Virus record (IMG/VR): IMGVR_UViG_3300035242_000035 | Location: 1 to 64,000 of that record | Source: a virus | Direction: 5' to 3' (one strand) | DNA: 64,000 bases | In this document: positions 2,335 through 53,082 of the stretch, piece after piece | Layout of the letters: every line of letters begins with the position of its first letter | Numbering within the stretch: position 1 is the first letter of the stretch | Made by a program: the position numbers and the translations under genes | Notes under the pieces: generated by a model | Told to the model about the DNA's origin: nothing | Database searches by the model: none | What the model saw: only the letters and a program-made list of their open reading frames with translations

Positions 2335-2583
2335 GTGCAGAACCCAATAAGAGGAGACGTGGTGCTGTTCACCCAGGGAGCACCGTATTTCGACCCTCCG
2401 CAGGAGCTACCGGCAATTGTCCGGTCGCTCTCATACGATTCGCTCAAGCCGAATCTCGTGCTGCTCGGCGGGGCTCCAGAGGACACCACCATGATGAAGG
2501 AGTTCGACACATTCAGGGCCGCTGTCGAACACAACGCTGATGGAGGTGTGGGCACATGGCGCTGGCCGCACGAGGCGGATTAG
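2335..2583 (+). CDS. small hypothetical phage protein
   Basis: GTG start after GGAG; 'PIRGDVVLF...PAIV...NLVL...GTWRWP' small phage-protein pattern. Confidence 0.5.
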   Translation: MQNPIRGDVVLFTQGAPYFDPPQELPAIVRSLSYDSLKPNLVLLGGAPEDTTMMKEFDTFRAAVEHNADGGVGTWRWPHEAD

Positions 2584-2589
2584 CCGGCA

Positions 2590-3093
2590 ATGAACGTGGC
2601 CAACCTCCCCAGAGCGCTCGTCGAGTGGGCCACGCACTTCGCGGACGCCGGCCGGGCGCACGAGGTGGACCCGTTCCTGCTCGCGGCCATCTGCTGGCGC
2701 GAGAGCCGAGGCGGCAGCGTCCTGAAGCCACCTGGCCCGGCAGGGGTTGGCGACGGAGGGCACGGGCGCGGGCTGATGCAGATCGACAACCGCGCCTGGA
2801 AGGACTGGGTCTTCCAGACGCCACTCGATAAACCGCAATGGCAGGACCCCCGCTACAACATCCTGAAAGGCGCCGAGATCCTGTCCGGCTACGTAGGCGA
2901 GCTGGGCGCGGAGCTCCCCGGCGTGGCGGCCTACAATGCCGGGCCGGGGGCAGTGCGCGCGGTCCTCAAGAGATCGGCGAACGTCTCCGCCCACGTCCTC
3001 CTCCACCGCCTGGACCTCATCACCACCGGGAAGAACTACGTCAGCGACGTGCTGGCGACGCGCAGCAGGTTCACGCCGAAGTCGCGCGTTTAG
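2590..3093 (+). CDS. endolysin, GH23 lytic transglycosylase / goose-type lysozyme
   Basis: LLAAICWRESRGG (catalytic Glu), GHGRGLMQID, AAYNAG, NYVSDV motifs. Confidence 0.9.
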   Translation: MNVANLPRALVEWATHFADAGRAHEVDPFLLAAICWRESRGGSVLKPPGPAGVGDGGHGRGLMQIDNRAWKDWVFQTPLDKPQWQDPRYNILKGAEILSGYVGELGAELPGVAAYNAGPGAVRAVLKRSANVSAHVLLHRLDLITTGKNYVSDVLATRSRFTPKSRV

Positions 3094-3895
3094 GGTTGGC
3101 GGGGACGAGATCCTCCCATGTTGGGAACGGGAGCCCGGCTGGGAGCGCTCTTTTGACTGCGCGGTGCAGGCCCCAGACGTAGCGCAGGTTGCCGCCGTGC
3201 CTCAGCGGCCTGGCGATCCTCGCGAGCCATTCCGTCATCCAGGTCGCCACGTCCTCGCCGCGCGCTGGCGGTTTCGCCCCGAAGCGCGTCAGGGTGGAGA
3301 TGGCGTAGCGGGCCCCGGTCTCGCCAGCCCGGGCCTTCTGGATGGCCCTCGGAGAGAAGATGGTCCCGTCCGGCAGCAGCTGGTGGACCCGCGCCTTCGA
3401 GCGGCCCGTGTAGACCCCGTTGTGGGCGCGGTAGATGGTCCCGAGGTGCCCGGGCATGACCACCGAGCCGTCGACCCGCGTCCGGCGCACCGGGTCGGAG
3501 AACGAGACGACCCCCGCGAACCCCTGGCGCGCGAGCAGCTCGAAGCACCTCCCCAGGAACCACGTCTCTCCGTTCGCCGGCACGTCGTCGAGCAGCACCA
3601 GGCGCCCCAGGTCGAGGCATTCCGCGGGCGGCGCCGGGATGGCGGAGAGCGCCTCCGCCCGGGCTGGCACGGAGAAGATGGCCGCGCCGACCACCTGCCC
3701 CGCGCGGCACAGGCCGAACTGCCGACGCGCCGCCGGGACGGAACCAGAGCAGTGGTGGGCGAGCACGAAGTCCTTCACCGGCCCGCACTTGCGCGCGAAC
3801 TCCACCACCTCGTAGAGGCGGGTCTGGATTGGCTCGCCCGCCGGCCGGTAGTTGGCGCGCCCAGATCGCCAGCGCTGCGTGAAGTCCACGTTCAT
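3071..3895 (-). CDS. mom: Mom-family (GNAT-fold) adenine modification enzyme
   Basis: FVLAHH(C)SG, LDLGRLVLLDDVPANGETWFL, VVSFSDP, GHLGTIYRAHN.VYTG match Mom-like proteins. Confidence 0.8.
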   Translation of the reverse strand: MNVDFTQRWRSGRANYRPAGEPIQTRLYEVVEFARKCGPVKDFVLAHHCSGSVPAARRQFGLCRAGQVVGAAIFSVPARAEALSAIPAPPAECLDLGRLVLLDDVPANGETWFLGRCFELLARQGFAGVVSFSDPVRRTRVDGSVVMPGHLGTIYRAHNGVYTGRSKARVHQLLPDGTIFSPRAIQKARAGETGARYAISTLTRFGAKPPARGEDVATWMTEWLARIARPLRHGGNLRYVWGLHRAVKRALPAGLPFPTWEDLVPANPKRATSA

Positions 3896-3972
3896 CGGCC
3901 AGCTCCTCGCGGGAGGGTGACGCCCCTTGTCGCGTGCGAGCGGCCAGGGGCGCCCGTTCTCGCGACGATCAT
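3892..3972 (-). CDS. 26-aa mini-ORF bridging vWA and mom
   Basis: ATGA overlaps at both ends (vWA stop, mom start). Confidence 0.3.
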   Translation of the reverse strand: MIVARTGAPGRSHATRGVTLPRGAGR

Positions 3973-4766
3973 GGCGCTCCGAAGCCGCCGGCCGAGGCCG
4001 CCTGGAAGTTCACCGCCGCCTGGGAGGCGCGCACGGCGGACTGTGAGAAGACCTGGAACGCCTGCCGGATGGACGACGCGTCGTTGCTGGGCGTGAGGAT
4101 CCACTTGTCCTCGATGCCCATGGCGCTGAACACCTTCCGGAAGTCGGTCTGCCCGTCGGCGATCCCCATCGCCGCCACGATGTGCGTCTCGGCCCGCCGC
4201 ATGTCCGTGACGATCTTCGCCACGTCGCTGGCGCTGGCGCGCTTGGAGTGGAGGTCCGCGCCGTCGGTGATGATGAGCGTCACCGTGCGGCACACCACGC
4301 CGCTGTTGGAGAAGTCCTGGGCCTTGGCCAGCACCGTGCCCAGGAGGAGCACGGTCTGGTCGTAGAGCGGGGTGCCCCCGGCGGCCCAGTAGTTGGACCC
4401 CTGCTCCATCTTCGGCACCTTGTTGACCGGCTGGTAGGGGAACAACACCCGGCCGTTCAGCAGGCGGGTGTGCGCCAGGATGGCGTCGGCCTGCTTGCTG
4501 GCGCGGAGCGCGTCGAGGACGAGGTTGTGGCCGTCGCAGACCACCTGCTCGTTGTGGGCCTCGGAGATCGACCCCGAGTCGTCGGGGAGGATGGAGACCA
4601 GCACCACCTCGCTGGACTGCACGTCATCCACGGTGATGCCGAGCCCGGCCTGAATCTGGGCGCCGAGGTCGCCCACGGCGAGGACCTGGGCGGACTCGGG
4701 CGAGAGGATGCCATCGGACTGGGCGCCCTGGAAAAGCTGGTCGACTGCGGTATTGCTCGAAGACAT
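3969..4766 (-). CDS. vWA (TerY-like) domain protein
   Basis: MIDAS DDSGS, GGTPLYD, IITDG; AAGGAG SD. Confidence 0.85.
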   Translation of the reverse strand: MSSSNTAVDQLFQGAQSDGILSPESAQVLAVGDLGAQIQAGLGITVDDVQSSEVVLVSILPDDSGSISEAHNEQVVCDGHNLVLDALRASKQADAILAHTRLLNGRVLFPYQPVNKVPKMEQGSNYWAAGGTPLYDQTVLLLGTVLAKAQDFSNSGVVCRTVTLIITDGADLHSKRASASDVAKIVTDMRRAETHIVAAMGIADGQTDFRKVFSAMGIEDKWILTPSNDASSIRQAFQVFSQSAVRASQAAVNFQAASAGGFGAP

Positions 4767-4857
4767 TCGCGGTTCTCCTTGGGTTCTGCGGGTTCTCAGC
4801 TGGTTGAAGGCCGCCGCCGGCGACGTGCAGGCGGCGGGCGTGGCGAAACGGCCAAAC

Positions 4858-5919
4858 CTACATCCCCGGCCACGAGTCCATTGGCTGGGTGGACTTCACC
4901 AGGGTCATGCCGGCGGCGCCGAACCGCTGGAGCGCCTGCTCGGCGTCGGCCGTGTAGTCCGCGATGAACCCGCCCTTGCCGTCCGGCACGGTCACCGCCG
5001 ACATGCAGTCGGTCAGCACGTAGACCTTCTTCGCCAGCGCGGGGTCCTGGGTGGCGATCTCCGAGAGCAGGTCGTCGATGGAGCTCTTCACGCAGTGGCT
5101 GGCGGCCTGCCCGGCGATGACCACCGCGTCGGCGCCGAGGAGTGTCTTCAGGAAGGCCGTGTTCCGCTGGGCGAGCGGCTGACCGTCGTGGCGGGTGAGC
5201 ACCTCAGGGCGGAGGACGGAGTAGTTCTCGGTGAGCGGGTTCCCACCCTTCACCTCGCACCAAGACTGGGTGCCGCGGACGAAGGCGTGGAACAGCCGGG
5301 CCTCGTGGATGGTCCCGACGAGGGCGTGGCCGTCGCTGCCGAGCAGGCAGTGGGGCGGCCAGAGGTAGAGCCTGTACTTGCCGGCCTGCTCGAGCTGTTC
5401 GCAGTAGTGGCGGACCTGCCCCATCAGCCAGGTGTAGTTGCCGTTGCACAGCCACGGCGTCATGGCCGGGTTTGGCTTCACCTCGCCGGCCAGCACCTGC
5501 GCGGTGGAAATCTCCCGGAACGGGGCGGCCGGGCTCCCGTCGGCCTGCTGCCAGAACGAGGGGAAGAAGATTTGGTAGGCAAAGTGGGTGTCGAGCGTCG
5601 TCGTGATGCTGGTGATGCGCGGGAGGTTGCCGTAGATGAACTCGGCGATCCTGGCGCTGTCCTCAATGGCGCCGCGGCCGCTGCGGCCGCCGACGTAGAG
5701 CGTGCCCTGGGGCAGGCAGAAGTCCTTCTGCACGTCGATCAGCAGCAGGTGGGCGCGGAGCTTGTCCGTCGCCGCGGCGCGGACGTTGTGCGCCCGGCGG
5801 AAGTCGTCGGCGTGGGTGAGCAGAGTCTGCTGGTTGGGGGTGTAATCCCACGCGGCGGAGCGGTCGCGCGCGTAGAACGCTGGAGCTGGGGTCTGGGACG
5901 GCGAGGTGCTGGCTTTCAT
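4858..5919 (-). CDS. nicotinamidase / isochorismatase-family cysteine hydrolase
   Basis: LLIDVQKDF, TLDTH, WPPHC, VKG, AGQAASHCV (Asp-Lys-Cys triad plus metal ligands). Confidence 0.85.
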   Translation of the reverse strand: MKASTSPSQTPAPAFYARDRSAAWDYTPNQQTLLTHADDFRRAHNVRAAATDKLRAHLLLIDVQKDFCLPQGTLYVGGRSGRGAIEDSARIAEFIYGNLPRITSITTTLDTHFAYQIFFPSFWQQADGSPAAPFREISTAQVLAGEVKPNPAMTPWLCNGNYTWLMGQVRHYCEQLEQAGKYRLYLWPPHCLLGSDGHALVGTIHEARLFHAFVRGTQSWCEVKGGNPLTENYSVLRPEVLTRHDGQPLAQRNTAFLKTLLGADAVVIAGQAASHCVKSSIDDLLSEIATQDPALAKKVYVLTDCMSAVTVPDGKGGFIADYTADAEQALQRFGAAGMTLVKSTQPMDSWPGM

Positions 5920-5956
5920 GTGCGGCTCCTTGGGTGCTGCGGGTTGCGGTTGTGAA

Positions 5957-7828
5957 TCAGTGGAACGTCAGGGCGACGATCTTCTTGGGGCTCACAACGC
6001 AGAGCCCGCGCGCGGCGGCGATGAGAGAGCAGCTCGCGTCTACGAAGGGCTCGGCGTCCGAGAAGACGCGGGTCTCGGTCGGCGCGCCGTTCTGGAGCTC
6101 GACGCGGATCACGCCGTCGTCGGTGGGGCAGAGGAGCAAGTCCCCCGCGGCGCACCTGCCGTGGACGTTGGCGAGCCACGAGTTGGAGTTTGCCGGAGCC
6201 TCCAACTGGCCGAGGACGTCCCCGTTCCGACCGAGGACGACGCAGTAGTTGATGAGGCGGCCGCGGAGTTGGGTCGCCACGAAGAGCCAAGCGCGCCGCT
6301 CGTTGATCGCGCAGGCGGCGTCGAGGATCTGCCCTGGCATCGCCGGCAGCTTCACCGTGTCCCGCAGCCCGCGCTTCTCGGCGTCGAACGTGAATCCCAC
6401 GCTGACGGCACCGGCGCGGTAGAAGCCCACGCCGAACGTAGGGCCGACCCAGAAGCGAGTCTGTCCCTGCAGCACATCGCCGATGATCTCGGGCCCGAGC
6501 TGCGCGTCGCGGTGTAGGCGCCCGCCGTGCGCCCAGTAGATGTGCGCCGGGTTGCACCCGAAGACGGGGCGGCCCTGGCTGGTGTCAACCGAGTAGACCT
6601 GCGACGCAACCGTGGACGGGACGCGCACCACCTCCCCGCCGAGCGCGAGGTAGGTGTCGGGCCCGCGGATGGCGTAGGTCACCCCCGCCCGGAGCGGGCC
6701 ACCGTAGACCGCCTTGCCGTCTTCGCGGACGAACGAGCTGCCCTCCCAGGCCAGCCAGCGCACGTCCCCGCCGTCGAGGCAGGTGTGGACGACCTCGCCC
6801 CGGGTCTCGAAGACCGTGGTGGCGGATACGCGGCCGCGCGCGGCCACGACGCGCGTCGCGGTGGCCTGGGCGTGCGGCTGGCAGGTAGGGCAGGAGCCCC
6901 GCGCATGCTCCCTGCCGCAGGACGAGCACGTCTGGAAGTGCAGCTGCTCCAGCAGCGGACGCGGGAGCGCTGCGCGGGCGTCGCGCGCGAAGGTCTGGTC
7001 GAAGTGGTGGAGCAGGTCATGTGGAAGGCTCTCCGCCGGCATGGCGGGCTTCGGGTACTGCACCTCGGGGTGGAGCACCGTCACCCGGCGCAGCGGACGC
7101 GCCGCTGGCGGGATGCGCTTCATCGCGTCCTTGGGCCTGTGGATGCCGCCGAAGGGCCCGACGCAGAGGAGGCTCTGGAAAAGGAGCGCGTGGAAGGCGT
7201 ACCAGTCGGAGAGCTCGTTGTGGGGCTTCGTGAGCACCGGGGTGGGGGCGCTGGCCTCGCAGAGCAGGGGGTCCACGAACCGCTCGGTGAAGACCGAGCT
7301 GAGGTAGGACCGCGCGGCGGAGCGGAACTGGAAGCTGTCCGCGTCGACGATGGAGATGCCAGCGGTTTTCACCAGCACGTTCAGGTCGTTGAAATCGCCG
7401 ATCACCACGCCGTTCCGGTGGAGGGCGGCCACCGCCTCGTGCAGCTCCAGGAAGACCTTCACCACGCTCCCGCCGCCGACGGTCCGCCGGAAGGCGGGTT
7501 CGCCGTACCGCATGATGGGCTCGGCCCCGCGCACCAGCGACATCGTGTACCCGAGGACTACCTTCCCGGCCCGGTCGGTCGCCAGTTCCTGCGGCGCAAC
7601 CACCTGCCGGGGCAGTCCCTTCGGGAAGTCGCGGAGCTTCGTCTGGTGCTCGAGGATCCTTGTCCTGGCCGCCTGCTGCTGGTCCGGCATCCCGGTGAAG
7701 TCCGCGTGCTCCGGGGGCTTGTAGAGCTTCAGGGCCGTGCCGATGTCGTACACCTCCGCCTCGCCCCCGCGGCCGAGCAGCTGCGCGGGCGACACGCGGA
7801 CCAACTTCCCCGCGAGGTAGACGTTCAT
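5957..7828 (-). CDS. Ser/Thr protein kinase (TerY-P type) with Zn-ribbon and beta-rich C-terminal domain
   Basis: LGRGGEAEVY, ALKLY, IGDFNDLNVLV, VDADSFQ; CSSC...CPTC; ATG at 7828 overlaps PP2C stop. Confidence 0.85.
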   Translation of the reverse strand: MNVYLAGKLVRVSPAQLLGRGGEAEVYDIGTALKLYKPPEHADFTGMPDQQQAARTRILEHQTKLRDFPKGLPRQVVAPQELATDRAGKVVLGYTMSLVRGAEPIMRYGEPAFRRTVGGGSVVKVFLELHEAVAALHRNGVVIGDFNDLNVLVKTAGISIVDADSFQFRSAARSYLSSVFTERFVDPLLCEASAPTPVLTKPHNELSDWYAFHALLFQSLLCVGPFGGIHRPKDAMKRIPPAARPLRRVTVLHPEVQYPKPAMPAESLPHDLLHHFDQTFARDARAALPRPLLEQLHFQTCSSCGREHARGSCPTCQPHAQATATRVVAARGRVSATTVFETRGEVVHTCLDGGDVRWLAWEGSSFVREDGKAVYGGPLRAGVTYAIRGPDTYLALGGEVVRVPSTVASQVYSVDTSQGRPVFGCNPAHIYWAHGGRLHRDAQLGPEIIGDVLQGQTRFWVGPTFGVGFYRAGAVSVGFTFDAEKRGLRDTVKLPAMPGQILDAACAINERRAWLFVATQLRGRLINYCVVLGRNGDVLGQLEAPANSNSWLANVHGRCAAGDLLLCPTDDGVIRVELQNGAPTETRVFSDAEPFVDASCSLIAAARGLCVVSPKKIVALTFH

Positions 7829-8652
7829 GGCGCCACCTTCCGCGCGAGCACCAGCGTGGTGTCGTCCCGCAGTAGTCCGGGCTCGACCCGGTGGGCTCCG
7901 TTGGCGCTCACCACCTTGTCGCGGCCTATGCGCGCCAACCACCGCCGCAGGCCGTCCTGGTTCTCGAAGACGGCGGGCCGCTCGAGGAGCTGGTGCAGGG
8001 GCCCGATGCGCTCCGTCGTCCCTGGGATGAAGCGGTCGGCCGCGTCGGCGAGGTCCCCAGCGCCGTCCGTCCCGACGATGAGCGTGGCCACGTCATCCAC
8101 GAGACGCCGGTGGTGGGTCCTGATTGTCAGAAGGTCGTCCGGGATGGACGTGGGCCTGTTCTTCAGGACGCCGTAGGCCAGATACGGCGGCTCGTTCCCC
8201 GCCTGCGGCTTCAGCCGCAGGGTCTCCCCGTTCACTGCGAGCAGGCCGTCCCCGCATGAGAAGGTTCGGAGGACCCCGCCGCTCGCGATCGCCCCCACCA
8301 CCGTGAAGAGCAGGCTCTCCACGACGGCGAAGCCGTGCAGACCAGGCGGCGCCAGCATCTCGGCCATCGCGAGAAGACGGTGCCGGACGGCCAGGGTGAC
8401 AGCCACCGTCCAGGCGCCATCGTCGTGGACCCGCCCGCCCTCGGCCTCGCTCGCCACGGCGTACGCCACCATCCGCGCCCCGGCGATAGCCCCCACCTCG
8501 CTCCGCGGGCTGCCGCTGCATCCGTCGCAGACGACGGCTACGAACCCGCCGTCCGGCAGTCGCAGGGTGAACGCGGCGTCCTGATTATTCCTGCCGACGA
8601 GCTGGTGTGGCCGGCCCGGCATGCTGCCGACCGCGAGTTGGAAGGTCGTCAC
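7825..8652 (-). CDS. PP2C-like protein phosphatase
   Basis: G..H...RNNQDA, VVCDGCSG, CGDG, GTDG, DDTT; GTGA overlap with upstream gene. Confidence 0.85.
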   Translation of the reverse strand: MTTFQLAVGSMPGRPHQLVGRNNQDAAFTLRLPDGGFVAVVCDGCSGSPRSEVGAIAGARMVAYAVASEAEGGRVHDDGAWTVAVTLAVRHRLLAMAEMLAPPGLHGFAVVESLLFTVVGAIASGGVLRTFSCGDGLLAVNGETLRLKPQAGNEPPYLAYGVLKNRPTSIPDDLLTIRTHHRRLVDDVATLIVGTDGAGDLADAADRFIPGTTERIGPLHQLLERPAVFENQDGLRRWLARIGRDKVVSANGAHRVEPGLLRDDTTLVLARKVAP

Positions 8653-9293
8653 CGTCCGGCCCTCCAGCGGTTGAGGAACAGTTCGCGGGCGCGCCCCTCG
8701 CACGCGGGGAGCACGTCCTCCACCGTGAGCCCCCGGAGGGTCGGCGGCAGCCATGCGTCCGGCGAGTCGCCGAACGGTTGCACCATCACGAGCCGCTCCA
8801 CCGCCTCGCCCGCCCGCCAGCGTTCGCGCGCGGAGGGTGGCGCGGCGGCCACGAGCCACACGTCACCGGCGCTCGTCTCCACGACGACGGCGGCCCACGT
8901 CCTTTCGACCTCACGCGCGAACCTGGCGCCGATCACCTCAAAGATGCCCGCGGCCGTCGAAGCCTGGCGGTTGCGGCACCCGGCGCACACCAGACGGCCG
9001 TCGGGCCCGGACACCGCCTGGCTGATCGCCGCGTCGTCCAACTCGGCGGAGCACCCGTCGCAGTGCACGAGGTCTTCCACGACGAGCTCGCCCGGCTCGC
9101 CGTTCGGGGTCCTGTAGCCCAGGTAACGCCAGCCGTTGTCCGGGTCGTGGGTCCAGAACGACGCGCCGTCCGTCTGCTCGGCGCACCCGAGGTCCCCCAG
9201 CCTCACCTCGAAGACGCGCGCGCCTCCGCTCTCGGTCGGGCGGAAGGTGATTCGGTGGGTGGGTACGAACTTCACTGCGGCGTCTGGGTCCAC
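8649..9293 (-). CDS. hypothetical protein with central CxxC..CxxC
   Basis: GGAGG SD; stop overlaps the PP2C start. Confidence 0.55.
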   Translation of the reverse strand: MDPDAAVKFVPTHRITFRPTESGGARVFEVRLGDLGCAEQTDGASFWTHDPDNGWRYLGYRTPNGEPGELVVEDLVHCDGCSAELDDAAISQAVSGPDGRLVCAGCRNRQASTAAGIFEVIGARFAREVERTWAAVVVETSAGDVWLVAAAPPSARERWRAGEAVERLVMVQPFGDSPDAWLPPTLRGLTVEDVLPACEGRARELFLNRWRAGR

Positions 9294-9490
9294 GTCGGCC
9301 TCCCTGATTGCTCGCTCTTGGTGTTCGTGGTTGGACGGGCGAGCCTTCCTCCGCCCAACCCCGGCCGCGAGTTATCCTCGCGGCGGTGCGCAATAGGTCT
9401 TTGCTGGTGGAGCCTTCCGCCGCGTACCGCCAAGCCTGCGTCCACCACCGCGCGCTTCACGCGCTCGCGCGGGTATGCCTGGCCCGGCGG

Positions 9491-9772
9491 CTAGGCTGGT
9501 ATCTCCACTTCCCCGGCGAGGATGCGGCCGGCTTGCTCGGCCCACTCCGGCGCCTTATCCCGGTTCCATTCCTCTGCGCCGAAGACGGCGTTGTTGAAGA
9601 CGTATTGCAGTTCATGCCACCGCTGACCGATGCTCTCCGGGGCGGTGAACGCGACAGCCATCTTGAGTCGCTGGAGGTTCCGGCGCAGTTGGCTCCTATC
9701 CTGCGGCACATGTTGGAGCATCGCATCGATCACCTTCGCGATGTCGCGGGGCTTCCACTTGGGTGCTGGCAT
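9491..9772 (-). CDS. hypothetical protein
   Basis: GAGGA SD, protein-like composition. Confidence 0.55.
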   Translation of the reverse strand: MPAPKWKPRDIAKVIDAMLQHVPQDRSQLRRNLQRLKMAVAFTAPESIGQRWHELQYVFNNAVFGAEEWNRDKAPEWAEQAGRILAGEVEIPA

Positions 9773-10122
9773 CGGTCGTCCTCGTCGGCTTCGCGTTGAT
9801 CACCGCGACCTGCGGGTTGCAGCGCTGGAAGGTTGTTCCACCAATTCACGCCAGCGTCGGGAACCGAAGAGAACCCCCAAAACGTGTTGCCATCTTCGGT
9901 CGGCACAGCAGCCACGAGCCAACCGATGGTGTGGGCCGACCGTGAGTCGGGGCGTTCTCTCTTCTGGTCCTTCAAAGCGCACTTGGTGCAGAACAACGCG
10001 GTCGAGCGGGCGTAGGTCTGGTACTCGCGGTACAGGCGGACTCCAGAAGCCCCGCAACCACAGTGGTACTCGGCCGGAGCAGCCTTGTCTGTGTACTTGA
10101 ACGGCGAGGTCTTGACGGTCAT
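9730..10122 (-). CDS. hypothetical Cys-containing protein
   Basis: ORF track; CxC...CxxC, Trp-rich C-terminal part. Confidence 0.55.
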   Translation of the reverse strand: MTVKTSPFKYTDKAAPAEYHCGCGASGVRLYREYQTYARSTALFCTKCALKDQKRERPDSRSAHTIGWLVAAVPTEDGNTFWGFSSVPDAGVNWWNNLPALQPAGRGDQREADEDDRCQHPSGSPATSRR

Positions 10123-10128
10123 TTCAGT

Positions 10129-10638
10129 TTACCCGTCCCACGTGGTGCCGACATCGGTCCTCCTGGCCGGCTGCGCGCGGATCGCAGCGACGAGGGCGTG
10201 CCGGTACTGGTCGGCGCTCAGCGTCCGGCGCAGCGCCCAGAGAATTCGGAGCAGTTCGGCGCGGCGCTTTGTGCAGCGGTAGAGGCGTCTCCAGACGGGA
10301 TACATCCCCTGGAGCCCCAGTCCGGTGATCGCGAGCACCGGTAGCTTGTCGTCCAGCAGCGGGCGGAAGGCCGCGATCATCGAGCACAGGAACAGCAGGT
10401 TCATGTACTTGGCGAGCGCGCCGTAGCACGAGACCATCTTCGCGCGCGGGTCGGGCCCGAACTCGGCCACGCGGTCCGAGATGGACCAGCCGCGCGAGCC
10501 CAGGTAGCCGGCGACCACCGCGACGGCCGACAGATAGTCCACGCGCCCGGCGAGCACCTGCTCCACGGACCACGCCAGGCAGAGCAGGGCGTAGATGACG
10601 GCCGCCTCTAGGTGCCAGGTCTTCAGCTTGCTGTTCAC
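10129..10638 (-). CDS. hypothetical membrane protein
   Basis: GTG after GAGG; about four hydrophobic segments; GTGA overlap. Confidence 0.55.
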   Translation of the reverse strand: MNSKLKTWHLEAAVIYALLCLAWSVEQVLAGRVDYLSAVAVVAGYLGSRGWSISDRVAEFGPDPRAKMVSCYGALAKYMNLLFLCSMIAAFRPLLDDKLPVLAITGLGLQGMYPVWRRLYRCTKRRAELLRILWALRRTLSADQYRHALVAAIRAQPARRTDVGTTWDG

Positions 10639-11180
10639 GGTGCCTCTCCACAGAAGACGAGATCCTTCAGGCGCTCCGCCGGCTGGAGGCCCTGGTGCGC
10701 GGCGCAGATGGGCGCACCGGCCTCGTGCTCCTTCCCGAGTCGGACCTGGCCATCGACTACGGCTCCGACATGGAACGGGATAACCATCGTCCAGACCGCA
10801 TGGGCTCCACGGCATTCAGCGCACGGCTGGGTGCCGGAGGGGAAGCAGCGGAAGAGGCCAGCGAGCAGTTCCGGTAGATCGCCGGCGCCGATCATCCCAA
10901 CGGCCACCTGGTCGCAGGTCACGATGGCCTGGAGGCGCTCCACGACGTGGAGCGGGTGATCGGAGCAGACGACTGCGCCGGCTGGCAACTCGGCGCCGAG
11001 TTGGACGGAGAATGCCTGAAGGGTGCCGGCCTGGAACGGCACCAGCATCGTCCAACCCGACCTGATCTTCCTGCCGCACTGTTGGCACGGAGCGGAGGGC
11101 TTCAGCTTGACGAACCTGATGACCGCCGTCGTGCCTGGGTGGAAACCGGGGTTCTCGGCCGCCGGGTAGAAGCGCTTCAT
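10635..11180 (-). CDS. hypothetical protein with duplicated CxxC...CxxH module
   Basis: two copies of CxxC..WTM..PF..G..LG.E..AGA..C..H. Confidence 0.6.
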   Translation of the reverse strand: MKRFYPAAENPGFHPGTTAVIRFVKLKPSAPCQQCGRKIRSGWTMLVPFQAGTLQAFSVQLGAELPAGAVVCSDHPLHVVERLQAIVTCDQVAVGMIGAGDLPELLAGLFRCFPSGTQPCAECRGAHAVWTMVIPFHVGAVVDGQVRLGKEHEAGAPICAAHQGLQPAERLKDLVFCGEAP

Positions 11181-11304
11181 GACGCAGCCCCCGGAACGTC
11201 TGGATCGACGGTGACAGAGTAGGAAGCGGCGCTGTTCGCGGGGAACTGCATGGGGTGCCTCTCCTTTCCACTGCGCGCCCGGCCTTGCCCGCCAGACGAG
11301 GCGA

Positions 11305-11332
11305 ATAATACACGTTCGGAGTCCAGATGCAA
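11305..11332 (-). promoter_or_regulatory. sigma70-like promoter/operator, copy 1
   Basis: TTGCAT-N16-TATTAT with degenerate GGAnTCC core; same motif at 19658, 36990, 42683. Confidence 0.65.
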
Positions 11333-11394
11333 GGCATTGCGTTCTGGATGCGGAACGGTAGTAGCCTCGCGCCGTCGCCAACCCGGAGGACCAC

Positions 11395-11868
11395 ATGTTG
11401 AAACCGCTGAAGTGGTTGTTCTTCTTGGTGCTTGCCCTGCCGGGGCTCGCGCTCGCGCAGCAGGCCCGGCCGTTCGACCCCGGGCAGGTCGCCAGTGGCG
11501 GACCGATTGACGGCTCCGCGCTCGTCCTCCTGCTCGTCCGAGCCGTGCAGGATGGGCAGTGGCTGCTCGTGCTGAGCCTGGTGGTGATCGGCTCGGTGTG
11601 GTTCTCGCGCTCGTTCCTGGGGCCCTACGTGCCGTGGCTCGCGACCTCGCGCGGCGGCGCGGTGCTCTCGCTGGTGGGCGGTCAGGCGGCGGCCTTCGCC
11701 AACGCCGCCGTGACCGGCCAGATGGGCATGGAGACCCTTGTCCGCGGGCTGGTAGCGGCGTTCATCGCCTCCGGTGGGTGGAGCCTCATCAAGGCCATCC
11801 TGCCGGAGCCGAAGCGGGAGCATCTGGGCGAGGATCAGGGGCTGGGCACTGCAGCACGTGGCCCATAG
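11395..11868 (+). CDS. holin-like membrane protein
   Basis: GGAGG SD; several TM segments; 'PWLATSRGGAVL', 'AFIASGGWSLIK', charged C-tail. Confidence 0.55.
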   Translation: MLKPLKWLFFLVLALPGLALAQQARPFDPGQVASGGPIDGSALVLLLVRAVQDGQWLLVLSLVVIGSVWFSRSFLGPYVPWLATSRGGAVLSLVGGQAAAFANAAVTGQMGMETLVRGLVAAFIASGGWSLIKAILPEPKREHLGEDQGLGTAARGP

Positions 11869-11871
11869 GGC

Positions 11872-12150
11872 ATGTCCGACATGAACACGCCCAACTGCCC
11901 GCCGGGACACAATAAGATGTACCTGGAGATTCCATCGGTCGACGGTGAGAGGCTCGTGGTTAGCCACGAGGCTGTCGTGCTGCCCGGGACGAATTCGGAA
12001 GGGTGCTTCTGGGAGGGGTCCGTCGATCTCGTCCATGGCGAGAAGACTGTGATCTGCCTCACGTTTGATGAGGCGGTGAAGGTTCGAGACGCGCTGATCG
12101 CCTTCATTCGGGATCACCAGCCGGCAGCCGACACGCCTCAGCGGCAGTAG
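11872..12150 (+). CDS. hypothetical protein
   Basis: ORF directly after the holin-like gene. Confidence 0.4.
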   Translation: MSDMNTPNCPPGHNKMYLEIPSVDGERLVVSHEAVVLPGTNSEGCFWEGSVDLVHGEKTVICLTFDEAVKVRDALIAFIRDHQPAADTPQRQ

Positions 12151-31647: not shown

Positions 31648-31926
31648 ATGGCCAAGAGCCGAGGCAAGAGGCAGATGGAGATTCCCGGCACCGAGCAGAA
31701 GCAGATCAAAGAGGTGACCGACGCGGCCGAGGTCTACGAGGCGGTCCGGGACAAGCGAATGGCGCTCACCGAGAAGGAGACCGCGGCCATGGCGACGCTG
31801 GTCGAGGTGATGACCAAGCACAAGATCACCGCCTACAAGGACTCCAATGCCGTCCCGCCGCTGGTGGTGGTCGTGCAACCCGGCAAGGTGAAGGCCAAGG
31901 TCTCTAGGATCAAGGAAGACGAGTAG
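31648..31926 (+). CDS. hypothetical coiled-coil protein
   Basis: GGAGG SD; Lys/Glu-rich. Confidence 0.65.
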   Translation: MAKSRGKRQMEIPGTEQKQIKEVTDAAEVYEAVRDKRMALTEKETAAMATLVEVMTKHKITAYKDSNAVPPLVVVVQPGKVKAKVSRIKEDE

Positions 31927-32036
31927 GGCGGGGCTTGCCGGCCAGGCCTCCGGTCTGGCATCTTGGCGGCGTCGGAAAGGAGAGGTACCCAAACCATGAT
32001 GGTGTCCAGCCTCTGCGCACCCGCGAGGTGCGCTCG

Positions 32037-34223
32037 ATGAGTGATCACGTCTTCACCGCACTGTTCCCGTTCTGCGGCCTCGGAGCTGGCGCTCGCGGCT
32101 TCATCGAAGCGATGGCCCATCTCGGCACGGACTCGGCTCGGTTCCTCAACCTCGGCGGGATCGACGTCGACGCGGAGAGTTGCTCCGACTTCGAGAGGTT
32201 GGCCGGCGGCCCAGCGCTCCGGGCCGACCTGCACTCGCTCACGCCGGCCGAGCTCATCGCCTGGCTGGTGGCGCAGCACGGGAGGAAGATCGCGGAGAGA
32301 AGGCCCGACGCCGTATTTCTGTCTCCGCCATGCAAAGGCATGAGCAGATTGCTCGGGACGAAGGCGGCAAGGGCCGAGAAGTATCAGCGCCTCAACGGCC
32401 TCGTGTGCGAGGGGCTGTTCCTCGTCCTGGAGACGTGGCCGGACGCCAGGCCGCCGCTGATCGTGCTGGAGAACGTGCCGGGCATCGTCCAGCGCGGGGC
32501 CGAACTACTCGACCGCGCGCGGCGGATGCTGTCCGGGTACGGGTACGTCTTCAACGCGGCCACCCACGACTGCGGCGAGATCGGCGGGCTCGCCCAGCAC
32601 CGCAAGCGCTTCCTGTTGGTGGCGCGCGACCCGCGCCAGGTGCCGGCGTTCGTCTACCAACCGCCGAAGAAGCGGGTGCGCGGGTGTGGCGAGGTGCTCG
32701 GCGAGCTCGCGCTCCCCGGCGACCCGGAGGCCGGACCGCTCCACCGGCTCCCGCTGATCGATTGGGTGAATTGGGTGCGGCTGGCGCTGATCCCCCCGGG
32801 CGGAGACTGGCGGGACCTCCCCCGCACCGTCCAACTCGCTGCCGACAACCCTAACCGTCACGAGGCGAAGCTGCGGGTCGAGGACTTCTCCCAGCCCGCG
32901 CATGCGGTGACGGGCGCCACGCGGCCGAACTCCGGCGCGCCCTCTGTTGCGGACCCGAGGGTGCTGGGCTTGAACTTGAGCCCCAACGCCCACAACAACC
33001 TCTATGTCGTGGGCGCGTGGGAGGAACCAGCGAAGACGGTGATAGGCGCTACCCGCCCGGGCAGCGGCGCTGCCGCTGTCGCGGATCCCCACCTAGAGAA
33101 ACTCCAGCCGGGGCTCACGGCCACCAATGCGGGGACCTGGAAGGGTCGGCCGGGCTTCATGGGCGTGCTCGACTGGCGGGAGCCGTCTCGGACGGTGGTC
33201 GGTCGCTCCTCTGTCAGCGGGGGTCATGCCAGCGCGGCCGTCGCCGAGCCGTTCGGCCACGTGAACCTGGTGCTCGGATGGGACCAACCGTCTGGCACGG
33301 TCACCCACGCCCCAGCGCCCAGCTCGGGTGGCGGCGCCGTCGCTGACCCGCGTGTGCCCGGGCTGGAGATCTCCGACTCATCCCGTGGCGGCGCGCTGGG
33401 GGTGATTGGTTGGGCCGAACCGGCACCCACCATCACCGGGAGCATGGAGCCCGCGCGCAGCAACACGCCGGGCTCAGTGGCGGACCCACGCTTCCGCGGC
33501 AGCCTGGGCGTGACGGCCTGGCAGGCGCCTGCTCGAACCGTCACCGGCGAGAGCTACCCGAGCAATGGGGCCGCCTCGGTCGCTGACCCGCGTCTGGTCT
33601 CGCCTGTTCAGCCAGGCCAAGCCCGTCGCGAGGTGATCGGCCGGCACCGGGTGCTCGACTGGCGGCACCCGTCCCCGGTGGTCGCCGGCCCCGGCAGCAA
33701 CGGCGCGCAGAACATCGCCGACGTGAGGGCCGAGGCGCTCGTGCTCGGCTGCTCCCCGCGAGCCGGCGTGTACGGCGTGCTGTCCTGGGAGCAGGCCGCG
33801 GCCACGGTGATCGGCGAGGCCCGGGTGGACAACGGCCGGTACGCGGTCGCCGACCCTCGGCCCGGCGATCCCGGTTGGCGCCCGCCGGAGGGGGTAATCC
33901 CGGTCATCATCTCACCGTGGGGCTGCTGGCACCGGCCGCTGACGACGCTGGAGCTGGCGGCGCTGCAGGGGCTCCCGGCGACGCTCAACGGCAAGCCGCT
34001 GGAACTAGCTGGCCGGGCAGTGTCCAGGTGGCGCGAGCGCATCGGCAACGCCGTGCCGGTCCAGGCCGGGACCGCGATCGCCGTGAGCCTGCTGAAGGCG
34101 CTGCTCGCCTCCGCGGTCGGCCACTGGTCCATCCTCTTCGGGCCGGGCGGCGCCGCGGTGTGGGTCCGGGATGACGGGCGGGACGAGCACGAGGTGGGCC
34201 CTTCGGAGGGGGTGTCTCCATGA
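32037..34223 (+). CDS. DNA cytosine-C5 methyltransferase with internal repeat array
   Basis: FCGLGAG (I), SPPCKG (IV), ENVPG (VI), QHRKRF (VIII), ELAALQG, IGNAVP (X). Confidence 0.9.
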   Translation: MSDHVFTALFPFCGLGAGARGFIEAMAHLGTDSARFLNLGGIDVDAESCSDFERLAGGPALRADLHSLTPAELIAWLVAQHGRKIAERRPDAVFLSPPCKGMSRLLGTKAARAEKYQRLNGLVCEGLFLVLETWPDARPPLIVLENVPGIVQRGAELLDRARRMLSGYGYVFNAATHDCGEIGGLAQHRKRFLLVARDPRQVPAFVYQPPKKRVRGCGEVLGELALPGDPEAGPLHRLPLIDWVNWVRLALIPPGGDWRDLPRTVQLAADNPNRHEAKLRVEDFSQPAHAVTGATRPNSGAPSVADPRVLGLNLSPNAHNNLYVVGAWEEPAKTVIGATRPGSGAAAVADPHLEKLQPGLTATNAGTWKGRPGFMGVLDWREPSRTVVGRSSVSGGHASAAVAEPFGHVNLVLGWDQPSGTVTHAPAPSSGGGAVADPRVPGLEISDSSRGGALGVIGWAEPAPTITGSMEPARSNTPGSVADPRFRGSLGVTAWQAPARTVTGESYPSNGAASVADPRLVSPVQPGQARREVIGRHRVLDWRHPSPVVAGPGSNGAQNIADVRAEALVLGCSPRAGVYGVLSWEQAAATVIGEARVDNGRYAVADPRPGDPGWRPPEGVIPVIISPWGCWHRPLTTLELAALQGLPATLNGKPLELAGRAVSRWRERIGNAVPVQAGTAIAVSLLKALLASAVGHWSILFGPGGAAVWVRDDGRDEHEVGPSEGVSP

Positions 34224-36484
34224 CCGCGGGATACGAGGCGTTCCTGTCCGGAAAGGCCCCGGCCTTCAGGCCCTCCGGTTTTGAGCCCAAGGCGGTGAGT
34301 CGCATGCTCAAGGCCTGGCAGGCGTCCATCGTCCGCCGCGGGTGCCGCCTCGGGCGGATGGCCGCCTTCGCGGACTGTGGCCTCGGCAAGGGGCCGATCG
34401 CGCTGGAGTGGGCGCGCCAGGTGGAGGCGAGCGCCGGGGCGCCGGTGCTGATCCTCGCCCCGCTCGCGGTGGCCCAGCAGTTCGTCACCGAGGCCCAGAA
34501 ATTCGGGCTCCCCTGCAGTTACGCCAGGAACCAGGCGGAGGCGTCCGGCCCGGTGGTGGCGACCAACTACGAGCGTCTGGGCGAGTTCGACCCCGGCCGC
34601 TTCTCAGGGGTGGTGCTGGACGAGTCGAGCATCCTCAAGAACTACTCCGGCAAGACGAAGCGCGTCCTGGTCGAGGCCTTCCGCACGACGCCGCACCGCC
34701 TGGCGTGCACCGCGACCCCGGCCCCCAACGACGTGATCGAACTCGGGAACCACGCCGAGTTCCTCGGCGTGATGCCGAGCGCCGAGATGCTAGCCCGGTG
34801 GTTCATCAACGATACGATGGAGGCCGGCAAGTACCGCCTCAAGCGCCACGCCGAGCGGGACTTCTGGCTGTGGGTCGCCGGGTGGGCCGTCACCATGGGC
34901 ACGCCGGGGGACCTGCTGGACGAGGCCGGCCAGCCGTACCCGGACGACGGCTACCAGCTGCCGCCCCTCGAGGTGGTCCACCACGTCGCGGCGGCGCCCG
35001 ACCGGAAGGCCCCGCCCGGCTCCCTGTTCGAGCACGTCACGCTCCACGCCACCACGCTCCACGCCGCCCTGAGGGAAAGTACGCCGCAGCGGGCAGAGCT
35101 CGCCGCGGAACTCGTGAAGGCCGAGCCGGACGAGGCCTGGGTAGTGTGGGTCGCCACCAACTACGAGGAGGAGGCGATCACCGAGCGACTGCCGGACGCA
35201 GTGGCGGTGCGTGGCGACATGGACCAGGAGGAGAAGCGGCGGCGGCTCGTGGACTTCGGAGAGGGGCGGGTCCGCGTCCTGGTCACCAAGGCGGGGATCG
35301 CCGGGTACGGCCTGAATTGGCAGCACTGCGCGAGGCACGTTCACCTGGCCAGCTCGTTCAGCTTCGAGGACTGGTATCAGGAGGCCCGGCGCAGCTACAG
35401 GTACGGCCAGACGCGCGCCGTCCGCGCGCACGTCGTGTGCGCCAGCGGCGAGGAGCGCATCCCGGAGGTCATCGCCGCGAAGCAGGCGGCCCACGCGGAC
35501 CAGCGCCGCCGGGCGGTGGAGGCCCAGCGCAGCCTTCAGCTCGCGGAACTCGACGGCCCGCGCGCCGAGGTCGGACCCGCCTACGTCAAGTCGGAGTCCA
35601 GCGAGGGTTGGAAGCTCCACCTCGGGGACTGCGTGGAGGCGGCGCGGCGGGTTCAGGACTCGTCCGTCGGGCTGCACCTGTTCTCCCCGCCGTTCTCCAA
35701 CCTGTACGTGTACTCGGCGAGCCTGCGCGACATGGGGAACTGCCGAGACGACGCCGAGTTCTTCCGGCACTTCGGATACCTCCTGCCCGAACTGTTGCGC
35801 ACCCTGAAGCCCGGGCGGCTGTGCGTGATCCACTGCAAGGACCTGCCGCAGTACCGCGGCGAGGCCGGCGCCCTCGGGCTGCGCGACTTCCCGGGCGAGC
35901 TCACCCGCCGGATGCTAGAGGTCCGCGGCGCTGACGGGGAACGGTTCGCCTACCACTCCAAGGTCACCATCTGGAAGTCACCTGTCTTGGAGATGCAGAA
36001 AACCAAGAGCTACGGCCTGCTCTACAAGACCCTCCGCGAGAACGGGTCCTTCTCGCGCCAGGGGCTGCCGGACTACCTGGTGGTGTTTCGCAAGTCCGCG
36101 CCCGGCGACGGGTGCGACGACCCGGTGAAGCACACGCCGGAGGACTACCCGCTCGAGCTGTGGCAGCGCGTGGCCTCGCCGGTGTGGTCGGACATCCGGC
36201 AGACACGCGTCCTCAACGTCGAGGCGGCCAGGGCCGACGACGACGAGAAGCACCTGGCGCCGCTGCAGCTCGACGTGGTGGAGCGCTGCGTTCGCCTCTG
36301 GACGAACCCCGGGGACCTCGTGTTCTCGCCCTTCGCCGGCGTCGGCAGCGAGGGCGTCGGGGCGCTCAAGTTGGGCAGGCTGTTCGAGGGGGCGGAGATC
36401 AAGCCCGAGTACTTCGAGCGGGCCTGCCGGAACCTGCGGTCCGCCGGCGCGCAGCTAGACCTGCTGACCGAGGAGGCGTCGTGA
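34220..36484 (+). CDS. SF2/SNF2-like helicase fused to amino (N4/N6) methyltransferase
   Basis: DCGLGK, LDES, TATP, GLNWQ; then GDC, FSPPF, VFSPFAGVGS. Confidence 0.9.
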   Translation: MTAGYEAFLSGKAPAFRPSGFEPKAVSRMLKAWQASIVRRGCRLGRMAAFADCGLGKGPIALEWARQVEASAGAPVLILAPLAVAQQFVTEAQKFGLPCSYARNQAEASGPVVATNYERLGEFDPGRFSGVVLDESSILKNYSGKTKRVLVEAFRTTPHRLACTATPAPNDVIELGNHAEFLGVMPSAEMLARWFINDTMEAGKYRLKRHAERDFWLWVAGWAVTMGTPGDLLDEAGQPYPDDGYQLPPLEVVHHVAAAPDRKAPPGSLFEHVTLHATTLHAALRESTPQRAELAAELVKAEPDEAWVVWVATNYEEEAITERLPDAVAVRGDMDQEEKRRRLVDFGEGRVRVLVTKAGIAGYGLNWQHCARHVHLASSFSFEDWYQEARRSYRYGQTRAVRAHVVCASGEERIPEVIAAKQAAHADQRRRAVEAQRSLQLAELDGPRAEVGPAYVKSESSEGWKLHLGDCVEAARRVQDSSVGLHLFSPPFSNLYVYSASLRDMGNCRDDAEFFRHFGYLLPELLRTLKPGRLCVIHCKDLPQYRGEAGALGLRDFPGELTRRMLEVRGADGERFAYHSKVTIWKSPVLEMQKTKSYGLLYKTLRENGSFSRQGLPDYLVVFRKSAPGDGCDDPVKHTPEDYPLELWQRVASPVWSDIRQTRVLNVEAARADDDEKHLAPLQLDVVERCVRLWTNPGDLVFSPFAGVGSEGVGALKLGRLFEGAEIKPEYFERACRNLRSAGAQLDLLTEEAS

Positions 36485-53027: not shown

Positions 53028-53082
53028 TGATGTCCGCGTGGCCCCGGCGACACGGGGCGTTCAACCCCAACAGGAGGAGAGC

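What the first reader, a model, noticed from the sequence alone, without database searches (positions are those of the whole stretch)
3071..8652. Phage-borne PP2C - kinase - nicotinamidase - vWA - Mom operon: a TerY-P-like triad joined to NAD-precursor turnover and DNA modification
Seen: five co-directional genes with intact-looking catalytic motifs (PP2C DG/GDG/TDG/DD; kinase GxGG, GDxNxxN, DxDS; cysteine hydrolase D-K-C; vWA MIDAS; Mom core), joined by start/stop overlaps or gaps under 100 bp. Established: vWA + PP2C + Ser/Thr kinase is the TerY-phosphorylation triad, a bacterial stress/anti-phage module; Mom enzymes modify phage adenines against restriction; nicotinamide is released by NAD-consuming defence effectors such as SIR2, TIR and ADP-ribosyltransferases. 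Inference: a four-component phospho-switch whose input or output is the nicotinamidase, carried by a phage for superinfection exclusion/defence or counter-defence, co-expressed with Mom. I recall similar vWA/nicotinamidase/kinase/PP2C clusters in myxobacterial chromosomes but know of no functional description, nor of a phage copy linked to Mom.
Basis: partly seen in the sequence, partly recalled or inferred. Interest (0 to 1): 0.88.

Follow-up and report, generated by a model that had tools for sequence, protein, structure and literature searches.

The report
Kinase-gated nicotinamidase cassette on a myxophage
An 81-kb phage of soil myxobacteria carries its own copy of a four-gene unit (phosphatase, protein kinase, nicotinamidase, metal-binding vWA protein) that its hosts keep under the NAD+ repressor NrtR, but without the repressor's binding sites, so it probably keeps vitamin-B3-to-NAD+ recycling running during infection; the neighbouring Mom DNA-modification gene is an unrelated passenger.

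Summary
The five minus-strand genes are real and look catalytically intact: PP2C, a Ser/Thr kinase with Zn ribbon and beta-propeller, a long-form PncA-like nicotinamidase, a vWA/MIDAS protein, and Mom.

- **Conserved unit.** PP2C, kinase, PncA and vWA are a fixed cassette. It stands in the same order in 59 of 63 bacterial loci with enough flank and in all 8 other viral contigs found. It is single-copy in 67 of 201 sampled Myxococcota genomes.
- **Mom is not part of it.** Mom is absent from all 88 cassette loci, and the cassette is absent from all 15 other Mom loci.
- **Host wiring.** In hosts the cassette belongs to the NAD+ salvage regulon. nrtR lies directly upstream in 32 of 80 loci and pncB is adjacent in 14. 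Tandem GTGT-N7-ACAC boxes (the NrtR core GT-N7-AC) precede PP2C, nrtR or pncA.
- **Phage copy.** The phage is a distant Mx8/Mx9 relative. It has no such box, no nrtR, and no pncB, nadD or nadE.

Best reading: an operator-free phage copy of a TerY-P-like phospho-switched nicotinamidase that feeds host NAD+ salvage. A defence or exclusion role is less likely.

I found no paper that describes the cassette. This scan has noted it before on other DNA (103 earlier notes). New here are the myxophage setting, the loss of operators and the exclusion of Mom.

The parts
8649..9293 (-). ORFan gene (214 aa) with a CxxC...CxxC stretch. Its TGA stop overlaps the GTG start of PP2C, so it is probably co-translated with the cassette. 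Phage-specific.
   Evidence: sequence; only itself among 5.8 billion proteins; no family hit.
7825..8652 (-). PP2C-type Ser/Thr phosphatase (275 aa)
   Evidence: Pfam PP2C_2 E=2.6e-11, above cut-off. Metal-binding Asp D43, D135, D196, D263 and D264 are invariant in 18 sequences.
6944..7828 (-). Protein kinase domain of the 623-aa kinase (aa 1-295)
   Evidence: G-loop, K34, D145/N150 and D162/D164 are invariant. AF2 pLDDT 90.6. Foldseek matches LRRK2, GRK2, CaMKII, PhK and ULK1. Weak Pkinase and LanL/LanKC kinase hits.
6878..6937 (-). Cys4 zinc ribbon following the kinase domain (C301, C304, C313, C316)
   Evidence: All four Cys are invariant in 24 sequences.
5963..6847 (-). C-terminal all-beta domain of the kinase (aa 328-622), beta-propeller-like; the likely sensor or docking domain
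   Evidence: AF2 secondary structure is all strands. Foldseek hits include the LRRK2 WD40 region, BamB and the Keap1 kelch domain.
4858..5919 (-). Long-form PncA-like nicotinamidase (353 aa; cysteine hydrolase)
   Evidence: D62/K224/C276 and the metal ligands D110xH112 and H190 are invariant in 30 sequences. Weak hits to M. tuberculosis PncA 3pl1, Pfam Isochorismatase and NCBIfam nicotinamidase/pyrazinamidase. Adjacent to pncB and nrtR in bacteria.
3969..4766 (-). vWA protein with a complete MIDAS site and a conserved three-helix N-terminal extension (265 aa)
   Evidence: Alignment. AF2 pLDDT 89.3. Foldseek probability 1.0 to integrin I-domains, CMG2, complement C2a and others.
3071..3895 (-). 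Mom-like DNA modification protein (274 aa). Co-directional neighbour, not part of the conserved cassette.
   Evidence: Pfam Mom 68.1 bits against a 27.1 cut-off. PHROG 1384, 'Mom-like DNA modification protein', E=7.7e-22. Never next to the cassette elsewhere.

Best explanation
The phage carries a diverged, operator-free copy of a myxobacterial four-gene module. In this module a long-form nicotinamidase (nicotinamide to nicotinate plus ammonia) travels with a TerY-P-like switch: a MIDAS-vWA protein, a Ser/Thr kinase (kinase, Zn ribbon, beta-propeller) and a PP2C phosphatase. In the hosts the module is part of the NrtR regulon. NrtR is the ADP-ribose-sensing repressor, so NAD+ breakdown derepresses the module, and the nicotinate it makes enters NAD+ synthesis through PncB. 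The phage copy has lost nrtR and the operators and sits in a phage transcription unit, so it is expressed on the phage's schedule. Its likely job is to raise flux from nicotinamide into the host Preiss-Handler route when NAD+ is being consumed or destroyed during infection, for example by NADase defences. Shown: gene identities, intact catalytic residues, fixed four-gene synteny, host NrtR/pncB/operator context, and absence of operators and other NAD genes in the phage. Inferred: that the substrate is nicotinamide, that the kinase and phosphatase act on PncA or the vWA protein, and that the benefit to the phage is NAD+ maintenance or counter-defence. Mom and the upstream ORFan are phage neighbours in the same gene row, not parts of the module.
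For: Synteny: PP2C, kinase, PncA, vWA stand in the same order in 59 of 63 genome loci with enough flank and in all 8 distinct IMG/VR contigs. These four are the only genes the phage shares with those loci. NAD context: nrtR (NUDIX + NrtR_WHD) lies directly upstream in 32 of 80 loci and NAPRTase/pncB is adjacent in 14. Three loci have the long PncA alone next to nrtR or pncB. One huge viral contig interleaves NadE and PncB with the cassette. Operators: GTGT-N7-ACAC occurs 148 times against 11.6 expected in 1.34 Mb. It is found mostly as tandem pairs 22-23 bp apart, and almost all copies lie just upstream of PP2C, of nrtR, or of pncA where insertions split the operon. This matches the published NrtR core GT-N7-AC (PMC2330246). 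Phage copy: no box in 81 kb, not even with one mismatch near the cassette. No NrtR_WHD, NAPRTase, NadD/NMNAT-type or NAD synthase domain. Host: the portal is 46% identical to Myxococcus phages Mx8 and Mx9 and the source is a rhizosphere metagenome. The kinase is single-copy in 67 of 201 sampled genomes of the phylum, one of them the unpublished G166. Selection: the phage proteins are only 41-71% identical to any homologue found, yet keep every catalytic residue. Precedent: phages restore NAD+ with NARP1, NARP2 and NARP3 against NAD+-depleting defences (10.1101/2024.02.11.579819 and PMC13464706).
Against: No enzymology exists for this long PncA subfamily. Its Pfam and NCBIfam scores are below the curated cut-offs, so the substrate is inferred from motifs and neighbours. 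A nicotinamidase alone does not make NAD+: the phage depends on host PncB, NadD and NadE. Removing nicotinamide could also relieve product inhibition of host NADases, which would hurt the phage. Nothing shows that the kinase or phosphatase targets PncA or the vWA protein. The complex predictor was unavailable, and no expression data exist. The host already has its own copy, so the gain from a second copy is an assumption.
Confidence: 0.55

Rival explanations
1. The cassette is a TerY-P-type anti-phage or superinfection-exclusion system that the phage carries to protect its infected or lysogenised host from competing phages. The nicotinamidase would be the effector or signal modulator.
For: The triad architecture (vWA + PP2C + Ser/Thr kinase with Zn ribbon) is that of TerY-P, and TerY-P-like modules defend against phages (PMC11090510). 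In Archangiaceae the site between kinase and pncA attracts conflict genes: ThsB-type TIR + MazG_C, a Tox-PAAR-like protein, and a response regulator fused to Mrr_cat. The phage region also holds Mom.
Against: No PADLOC TerY-P model matches any of the proteins. In hosts the cassette is single-copy, its PncA tree follows taxonomy, and it sits under NrtR operators with nrtR and pncB. That is the pattern of a metabolic regulon, not a mobile defence island. No integrase or resolvase was found, so lysogeny is not evident. No toxic effector domain is present.
Confidence: 0.15
2. The enzyme's purpose is to remove nicotinamide, or another amide, rather than to make NAD+. It might relieve nicotinamide inhibition of an NAD+-consuming enzyme, blunt a nicotinamide-dependent host signal, or act on a different pyridine or nucleotide amide.
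For: Scores to PncA models are weak. The protein is nearly twice the length of canonical PncA, with a roughly 78-residue insert between the metal ligands and a 55-residue N-terminal extension. The phage lacks every downstream salvage enzyme.
Against: No ADP-ribosyltransferase-toxin, SIR2 or TIR domain was found in the phage. The full PncA catalytic and metal-binding set is invariant. pncB adjacency and NrtR control in bacteria argue for the Preiss-Handler role.
Confidence: 0.15
3. The cassette is passenger DNA picked up from a host chromosome and has no function for the phage.
For: All four genes have chromosomal homologues in the presumed host phylum. Close phage relatives with which presence or absence could be compared were not found.
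Against: Identity to the nearest homologue is only 41-71%, with long branches in all three trees. No sampled donor lineage was found, yet all catalytic residues are intact and the reading frames are open. Operators and nrtR have been removed cleanly, and the genes are tightly packed with phage genes. The same cassette recurs on 8 other viral contigs.
Confidence: 0.1

Closest known systems
TerY-P triad (Anantharaman, Iyer and Aravind 2012, as summarised in PMC11090510) and E. coli yegL-pphC-yegI (bioRxiv 10.1101/819920, 10.1101/303594)
   Same: vWA/MIDAS protein, PP2C phosphatase and Ser/Thr kinase in one operon. The kinase is followed by a Zn ribbon. PP2C and kinase genes overlap by ATGA, as pphC-yegI do.
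   Different: A nicotinamidase is a fixed fourth member here. The kinase carries an extra beta-propeller and, unlike YegI, is not described as a membrane protein. The host copies sit in an NrtR/NAD+ salvage context rather than Ter, McrBC/CoCoNuT or DNA-processing contexts. No PADLOC TerY-P HMM matches. The substrates of all these triads are unknown.
NrtR regulons of nicotinamide salvage, e.g. nrtR<>pncA-pncB (Rodionov et al. 2008, PMC2330246)
   Same: In hosts: the nrtR gene, GT-N7-AC palindromic operators, and pncA with or without pncB as targets.
   Different: The paper lists no kinase, PP2C or vWA genes and no Myxococcota. The phage copy has neither nrtR nor operators.
Phage NAD+ reconstitution pathways NARP1, NARP2 and NARP3 (10.1101/2024.02.11.579819; PMC13464706)
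   Same: Phage-borne NAD+ precursor-recycling genes, proposed here to serve the same end of sustaining NAD+ during infection.
   Different: The enzymes differ: Adps/Namat, Nampt/Nmnat and PnuC/NadR-like, against a nicotinamidase here. This cassette is not a complete pathway, depends on host PncB/NadD/NadE, and carries a signalling triad. Its function is untested.
Canonical PncA nicotinamidase/pyrazinamidase (e.g. M. tuberculosis PncA, PDB 3pl1)
   Same: Asp-Lys-Cys triad and Asp/His/His metal site at equivalent positions; WPxH motif.
   Different: 353 aa against about 186 aa. There are large insertions, and scores are below the family cut-offs.
Mom of phage Mu (Pfam PF25680, PHROG 1384)
   Same: The 3071-3895 gene is a clear family member.
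   Different: It has no conserved link with the cassette.

Membership tests
TerY-P triad | vWA domain protein with a MIDAS site | tested here: met
   AF2 model plus Foldseek vWA hits; DxSxS, T and D conserved.
TerY-P triad | PP2C-like phosphatase in the same operon | tested here: met
   Pfam PP2C_2 above cut-off; catalytic Asp residues invariant.
TerY-P triad | Ser/Thr kinase fused C-terminally to a zinc ribbon | tested here: met
   Kinase motifs and a Cys4 ribbon are invariant; kinase fold. An additional beta-propeller follows the ribbon.
TerY-P triad | Recognised by the defence-system HMMs for TerY-P (PADLOC) | tested here: not met
   No TerY-P model hit at E<=0.01; only weak PD-T4-6 and MkoA kinase-domain hits.
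TerY-P triad | vWA specifically of the TerY subfamily | tested here: inconclusive
   No Pfam, NCBIfam, PDB-sequence or PADLOC hit for the vWA protein; only the general vWA fold is shown.
PncA nicotinamidase | Catalytic Asp-Lys-Cys triad | tested here: met
   D62, K224 and C276 invariant in 30 sequences; aligned to the 3pl1 motifs.
PncA nicotinamidase | Metal site (Asp, His, His) | tested here: met
   D110, H112 and H190 invariant.
PncA nicotinamidase | Score above curated family cut-off | tested here: not met
   Pfam Isochorismatase 22.9 bits against 27; NCBIfam PRK11609 26.4 bits against 174.
PncA nicotinamidase | Nicotinamide deamidase activity | not testable with these tools
   Needs an enzyme assay.
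NrtR regulon | nrtR gene and GT-N7-AC operators at the locus | tested here: not met
   Met in the bacterial homologous loci. Not met in the phage: no NrtR_WHD domain and no box.
Mom family | Pfam Mom above gathering score | tested here: met
   68.1 bits against 27.1; PHROG 1384.
NARP1/2/3 phage NAD+ reconstitution | The defining enzymes (Adps+Namat; Nampt+Nmnat; PnuC+NadR-like) | tested here: not met
   No CTP_transf_like (NMNAT/NadR-type) or NAPRTase-family domain in the 81-kb genome. Adps, Namat and PnuC were not searched specifically.

The most novel reading that the evidence does not exclude
The cassette is a fourth, undescribed kind of phage NAD+ counter-defence. A sensor kinase (beta-propeller), a PP2C and a vWA protein switch on a nicotinamidase when host NADase defences release nicotinamide and ADP-ribose. 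This channels the breakdown product back into NAD+ through the host Preiss-Handler enzymes. The host version is the cell's own, NrtR-controlled form of the same switch, which would give TerY-P-type triads their first defined metabolic target.
Probability: 0.3. Interest if true: 0.85.

Novelty: new variant of a known kind. Interest (0 to 1): 0.64.

Why it matters
TerY-P-type triads (vWA, PP2C, Ser/Thr kinase) are widespread, and E. coli has one, but no substrate or physiological output is known for any of them. Here the triad has a constant enzymatic partner and, in hosts, a known regulator and pathway. That makes its function directly testable with NAD+ and nicotinate measurements, phosphoproteomics and NrtR gel shifts.

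For phage biology, it would add a Preiss-Handler-based route to the known ways in which phages keep NAD+ up against NAD+-depleting immunity. It also shows a phage stripping host repressor control from a captured regulon. If the enzyme turns out not to act on nicotinamide, the module is still a conserved, unstudied signalling unit of large-genome myxobacteria and several other phyla.

Tried and rejected
- **Mom as part of the system:** rejected. Mom is absent from all 88 cassette loci and the cassette is absent from all 15 Mom loci. An apparent N-terminal extension of Mom over the vWA stop is low-complexity noise; the match in L094 contains a stop.
- **PADLOC defence models:** no TerY-P hit.
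- **Close relatives of the phage:** nothing by DNA in GenBank phages. The portal-based IMG/VR scan found none, so I could not test whether the cassette is variable within the phage lineage.
- **Kinase homologues in 50,697 GenBank phage records:** one weak hit only.
- **Upstream ORFan 8649-9293:** no homologue at all.
- **Promoter and terminator consensus scan of 2400-11600:** nothing above chance.
- **Donor lineage:** the trees place the phage copy among Myxococcota-type sequences on a long branch. It is a weak sister of a Polyangia MAG for PncA, and sits inside a Myxococcia-rich clade for vWA. No donor can be named, and the careful PncA tree did not finish.
- **Expression:** no RNA holder listed. 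Only two rhizosphere DNA runs hold the stretch, and one may be the source.
- **Anantharaman 2012 paper:** not held, so TerY-P features are taken from PMC11090510.
- **Literature searches for nicotinamidase with TerY, vWA, PP2C or NrtR:** found no description of the cassette.

Full report
**What is there.** The window is the first 64 kb of an 81,072-bp IMG/VR virus record with terminal repeats, rated complete, at about 69% G+C.
- Phage identity is clear. It has a portal, a large terminase, Erf- and RecE-like recombination genes, a ParB-like protein and methyltransferase/helicase genes.
- The portal is 46% identical to those of Myxococcus phages Mx8 and Mx9, and the DNA occurs in rhizosphere metagenomes. 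The host is therefore very probably a myxobacterium.
- No tyrosine integrase or resolvase domain was found.

Third-position G+C picks the minus-strand frames. The gene row is:
- ORFan 8649-9293
- PP2C 7825-8652
- kinase 5957-7828
- PncA-like 4858-5919
- vWA 3969-4766
- Mom 3071-3895

The ORFan stop overlaps the PP2C start (GTGA), and the PP2C stop overlaps the kinase start (ATGA). The other gaps are 37, 91 and 73 bp.

**Gene identities.**
- *PP2C and Mom.* Both pass the Pfam cut-offs. Mom also matches PHROG 1384. The PP2C metal-binding aspartates are invariant.
- *Kinase.* It has only weak HMM hits, but all catalytic motifs are invariant in 24 sequences, as are four cysteines of a Zn ribbon. 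Its AlphaFold2 model (pLDDT 90.6) is a protein-kinase fold followed by an all-beta propeller-like domain. Foldseek returns LRRK2, GRK2, CaMKII and PhK, plus BamB and Keap1 kelch.
- *PncA-like protein.* It scores below family cut-offs. It nevertheless aligns to M. tuberculosis PncA at the D8 and WPPHC motifs. It keeps D62, K224, C276 and the metal ligands D110, H112 and H190 in all 30 sequences.
- *vWA protein.* It has no sequence-family hit, but its model (pLDDT 89.3) matches solved vWA domains at probability 1.0. The MIDAS residues are conserved.

**What is conserved and what is not.**
- A kinase-based scan of IMG/VR found 9 loci (8 distinct contigs, 42-545 kb). All carry PP2C, kinase, PncA and vWA together.
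- Of the best 80, 63 have enough flank. Of those, 59 carry all four genes in the order PP2C, kinase, PncA, vWA. Three have the long PncA alone, and one has only vWA within reach.
- Clustering all flanking ORFs showed that these four are the only broadly shared genes, and the only ones shared with the phage.
- Mom was in none of these loci. Fifteen other viral contigs with a Mom homologue lack the cassette within 8 kb. Mom is therefore an independent accessory gene that happens to sit downstream here.

**Host context.**
- The gene directly upstream of PP2C in 32 of 80 loci encodes NUDIX + NrtR_WHD, that is NrtR. A NAPRTase (pncB) is adjacent in 14.
- I searched the nrtR-PP2C spacers and nrtR upstream regions for palindromes without prior assumption. 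GTGT-N7-ACAC appeared in 30 of the 55 regions searched, usually as two boxes 22-23 bp apart with flanking consensus GAC(A/T)T...TAAG.
- Across all 80 loci there are 148 boxes against 11.6 expected from shuffles. Nearly all lie just upstream of PP2C, including Kofleriaceae and Haliangiales loci that have no adjacent nrtR, or upstream of nrtR.
- In Archangiaceae, insertions separate kinase from pncA, and there a second pair lies just upstream of pncA.
- This is the published NrtR core: a 21-bp palindrome with GT-N7-AC, whose binding is released by ADP-ribose (PMC2330246).
- The PncA tree follows myxobacterial families. The kinase is single-copy in 67 of 201 evenly sampled genomes of the phylum, and the matching genomes are the larger ones in the listing. 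That tally includes one unpublished genome, G166.
- In its hosts, then, the cassette is a vertically inherited part of the nicotinamide-salvage regulon, not a mobile defence island.

**The phage copy.**
- The whole 81-kb genome has no GTGT-N7-ACAC box, none with one mismatch near the cassette, and no tandem pair.
- It has no NrtR_WHD, NAPRTase, NadD/NMNAT-type or NAD synthase domain.
- It also has no ADP-ribosyltransferase-toxin, SIR2 or TIR domain.
- The phage proteins are 41% (PP2C), 50% (kinase), 71% (PncA) and 67% (vWA) identical to the best homologues. They sit on long branches among Myxococcota-type sequences with no identifiable donor.
- Every catalytic residue is intact. That argues for long residence under purifying selection rather than a recent accidental pick-up.

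**Mechanism.** The best-supported reading is a phospho-switched nicotinamidase. The enzyme converts nicotinamide, the product of NAD+ glycohydrolysis and of ADP-ribosyl transfer, to nicotinate for PncB. The kinase, PP2C and MIDAS-vWA protein control it or scaffold it.
- In hosts, transcription responds to ADP-ribose through NrtR.
- The phage copy escapes that control and is co-transcribed with phage genes.
- The steps from 'nicotinamidase-like' to 'nicotinamidase', and from 'co-inherited' to 'phosphorylation target', are inferences.
- The benefit to the phage is also inferred, by analogy with NARP1-3, which restore NAD+ against Sir2, TIR or DSR-type depletion.
- Those pathways use other enzymes and are complete. 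This cassette is only the first step and needs host PncB, NadD and NadE.

**Comparison with known systems.**
- Architecturally the triad meets the TerY-P definition: vWA, PP2C, and a Ser/Thr kinase with C-terminal Zn ribbon (PMC11090510). It resembles E. coli yegL-pphC-yegI, whose substrates are also unknown.
- It is not recognised by the PADLOC TerY-P models. It differs from the Gao-type defence variant, whose kinase is fused to an OB fold rather than a propeller.
- I found no paper that links a nicotinamidase to such a triad. The NrtR paper lists neither these genes nor Myxococcota.

**Relation to earlier notes of this scan.** After I had reached the NrtR/pncB context, I looked up earlier notes. 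The same four-gene cassette has been reported 103 times on other DNA, including CPR bacteria, cyanobacteria, myxobacteria and huge phages, with the same closest-known systems. My results agree with them.

New here:
- the Mx8-like, mid-sized phage setting
- the de novo operator in Myxococcota and its absence from the phage
- the absence of any other NAD gene in the phage
- the explicit exclusion of Mom

**Verdict.** The finding is a new variant of a known kind: a TerY-P-like triad with a fixed nicotinamidase partner, here in an operator-free phage copy. Its function is plausible but untested.

Noticed in passing
L028:5175-7602; L024:5322-6452; L025:7062-8183 (Archangiaceae chromosomal loci): The spacer between kinase and pncA is an insertion hot spot of 1-5.6 kb. 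It carries conflict-type genes: ThsB-type TIR plus a MazG_C protein, a Tox-PAAR-like protein, and a response regulator fused to Mrr_cat. Where the operon is split, pncA-vWA has its own tandem GTGT-N7-ACAC pair.
   Followed up: partly
L004:354-12613 (IMG/VR contig of 253 kb, 33% G+C): A huge viral contig interleaves the cassette with a full salvage set: PP2C, an unknown gene, NadE, a GIY-YIG protein, PncB, kinase, PncA and then vWA about 3 kb further on.
   Followed up: partly
L049:5165-6247 and 13 other Myxococcaceae/Archangiaceae loci: A DAGK_cat-domain protein (lipid kinase or NAD kinase-like superfamily) is conserved just upstream of nrtR in 14 loci.
   Followed up: no
window 8649-9293 (-): An ORFan of 214 aa with two CxxC pairs is translationally coupled to PP2C. 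It has no homologue among 5.8 billion proteins.
   Followed up: partly
window 3071-10815 (-) between 2590-3093 (+) and 11365-12150 (+): The cassette lies in a roughly 8-kb minus-strand block set between plus-strand genes. The SLT lytic transglycosylase gene converges on Mom with a 23-bp overlap.
   Followed up: partly
window 31908-36484 (+): Two large adjacent genes (771 and 769 aa) carry DNA methyltransferase and helicase domains, a DarB-like anti-restriction layout. Together with Mom this suggests heavy investment in evading restriction.
   Followed up: no
window 52966-53382 (+) and L087:84-386: A small phage gene just upstream of the portal has a 56%-identical homologue on a Thermodesulfobacteriota MAG contig that also carries a stand-alone long PncA.
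   Followed up: no
L014, L015, L022 (MAGs labelled Elusimicrobia, about 69% G+C in name): The PncA of these three MAG contigs nests inside the Myxococcia clade with strong support, and they also carry pncB and nrtR. This suggests either misbinning or horizontal transfer of the whole block.
   Followed up: no
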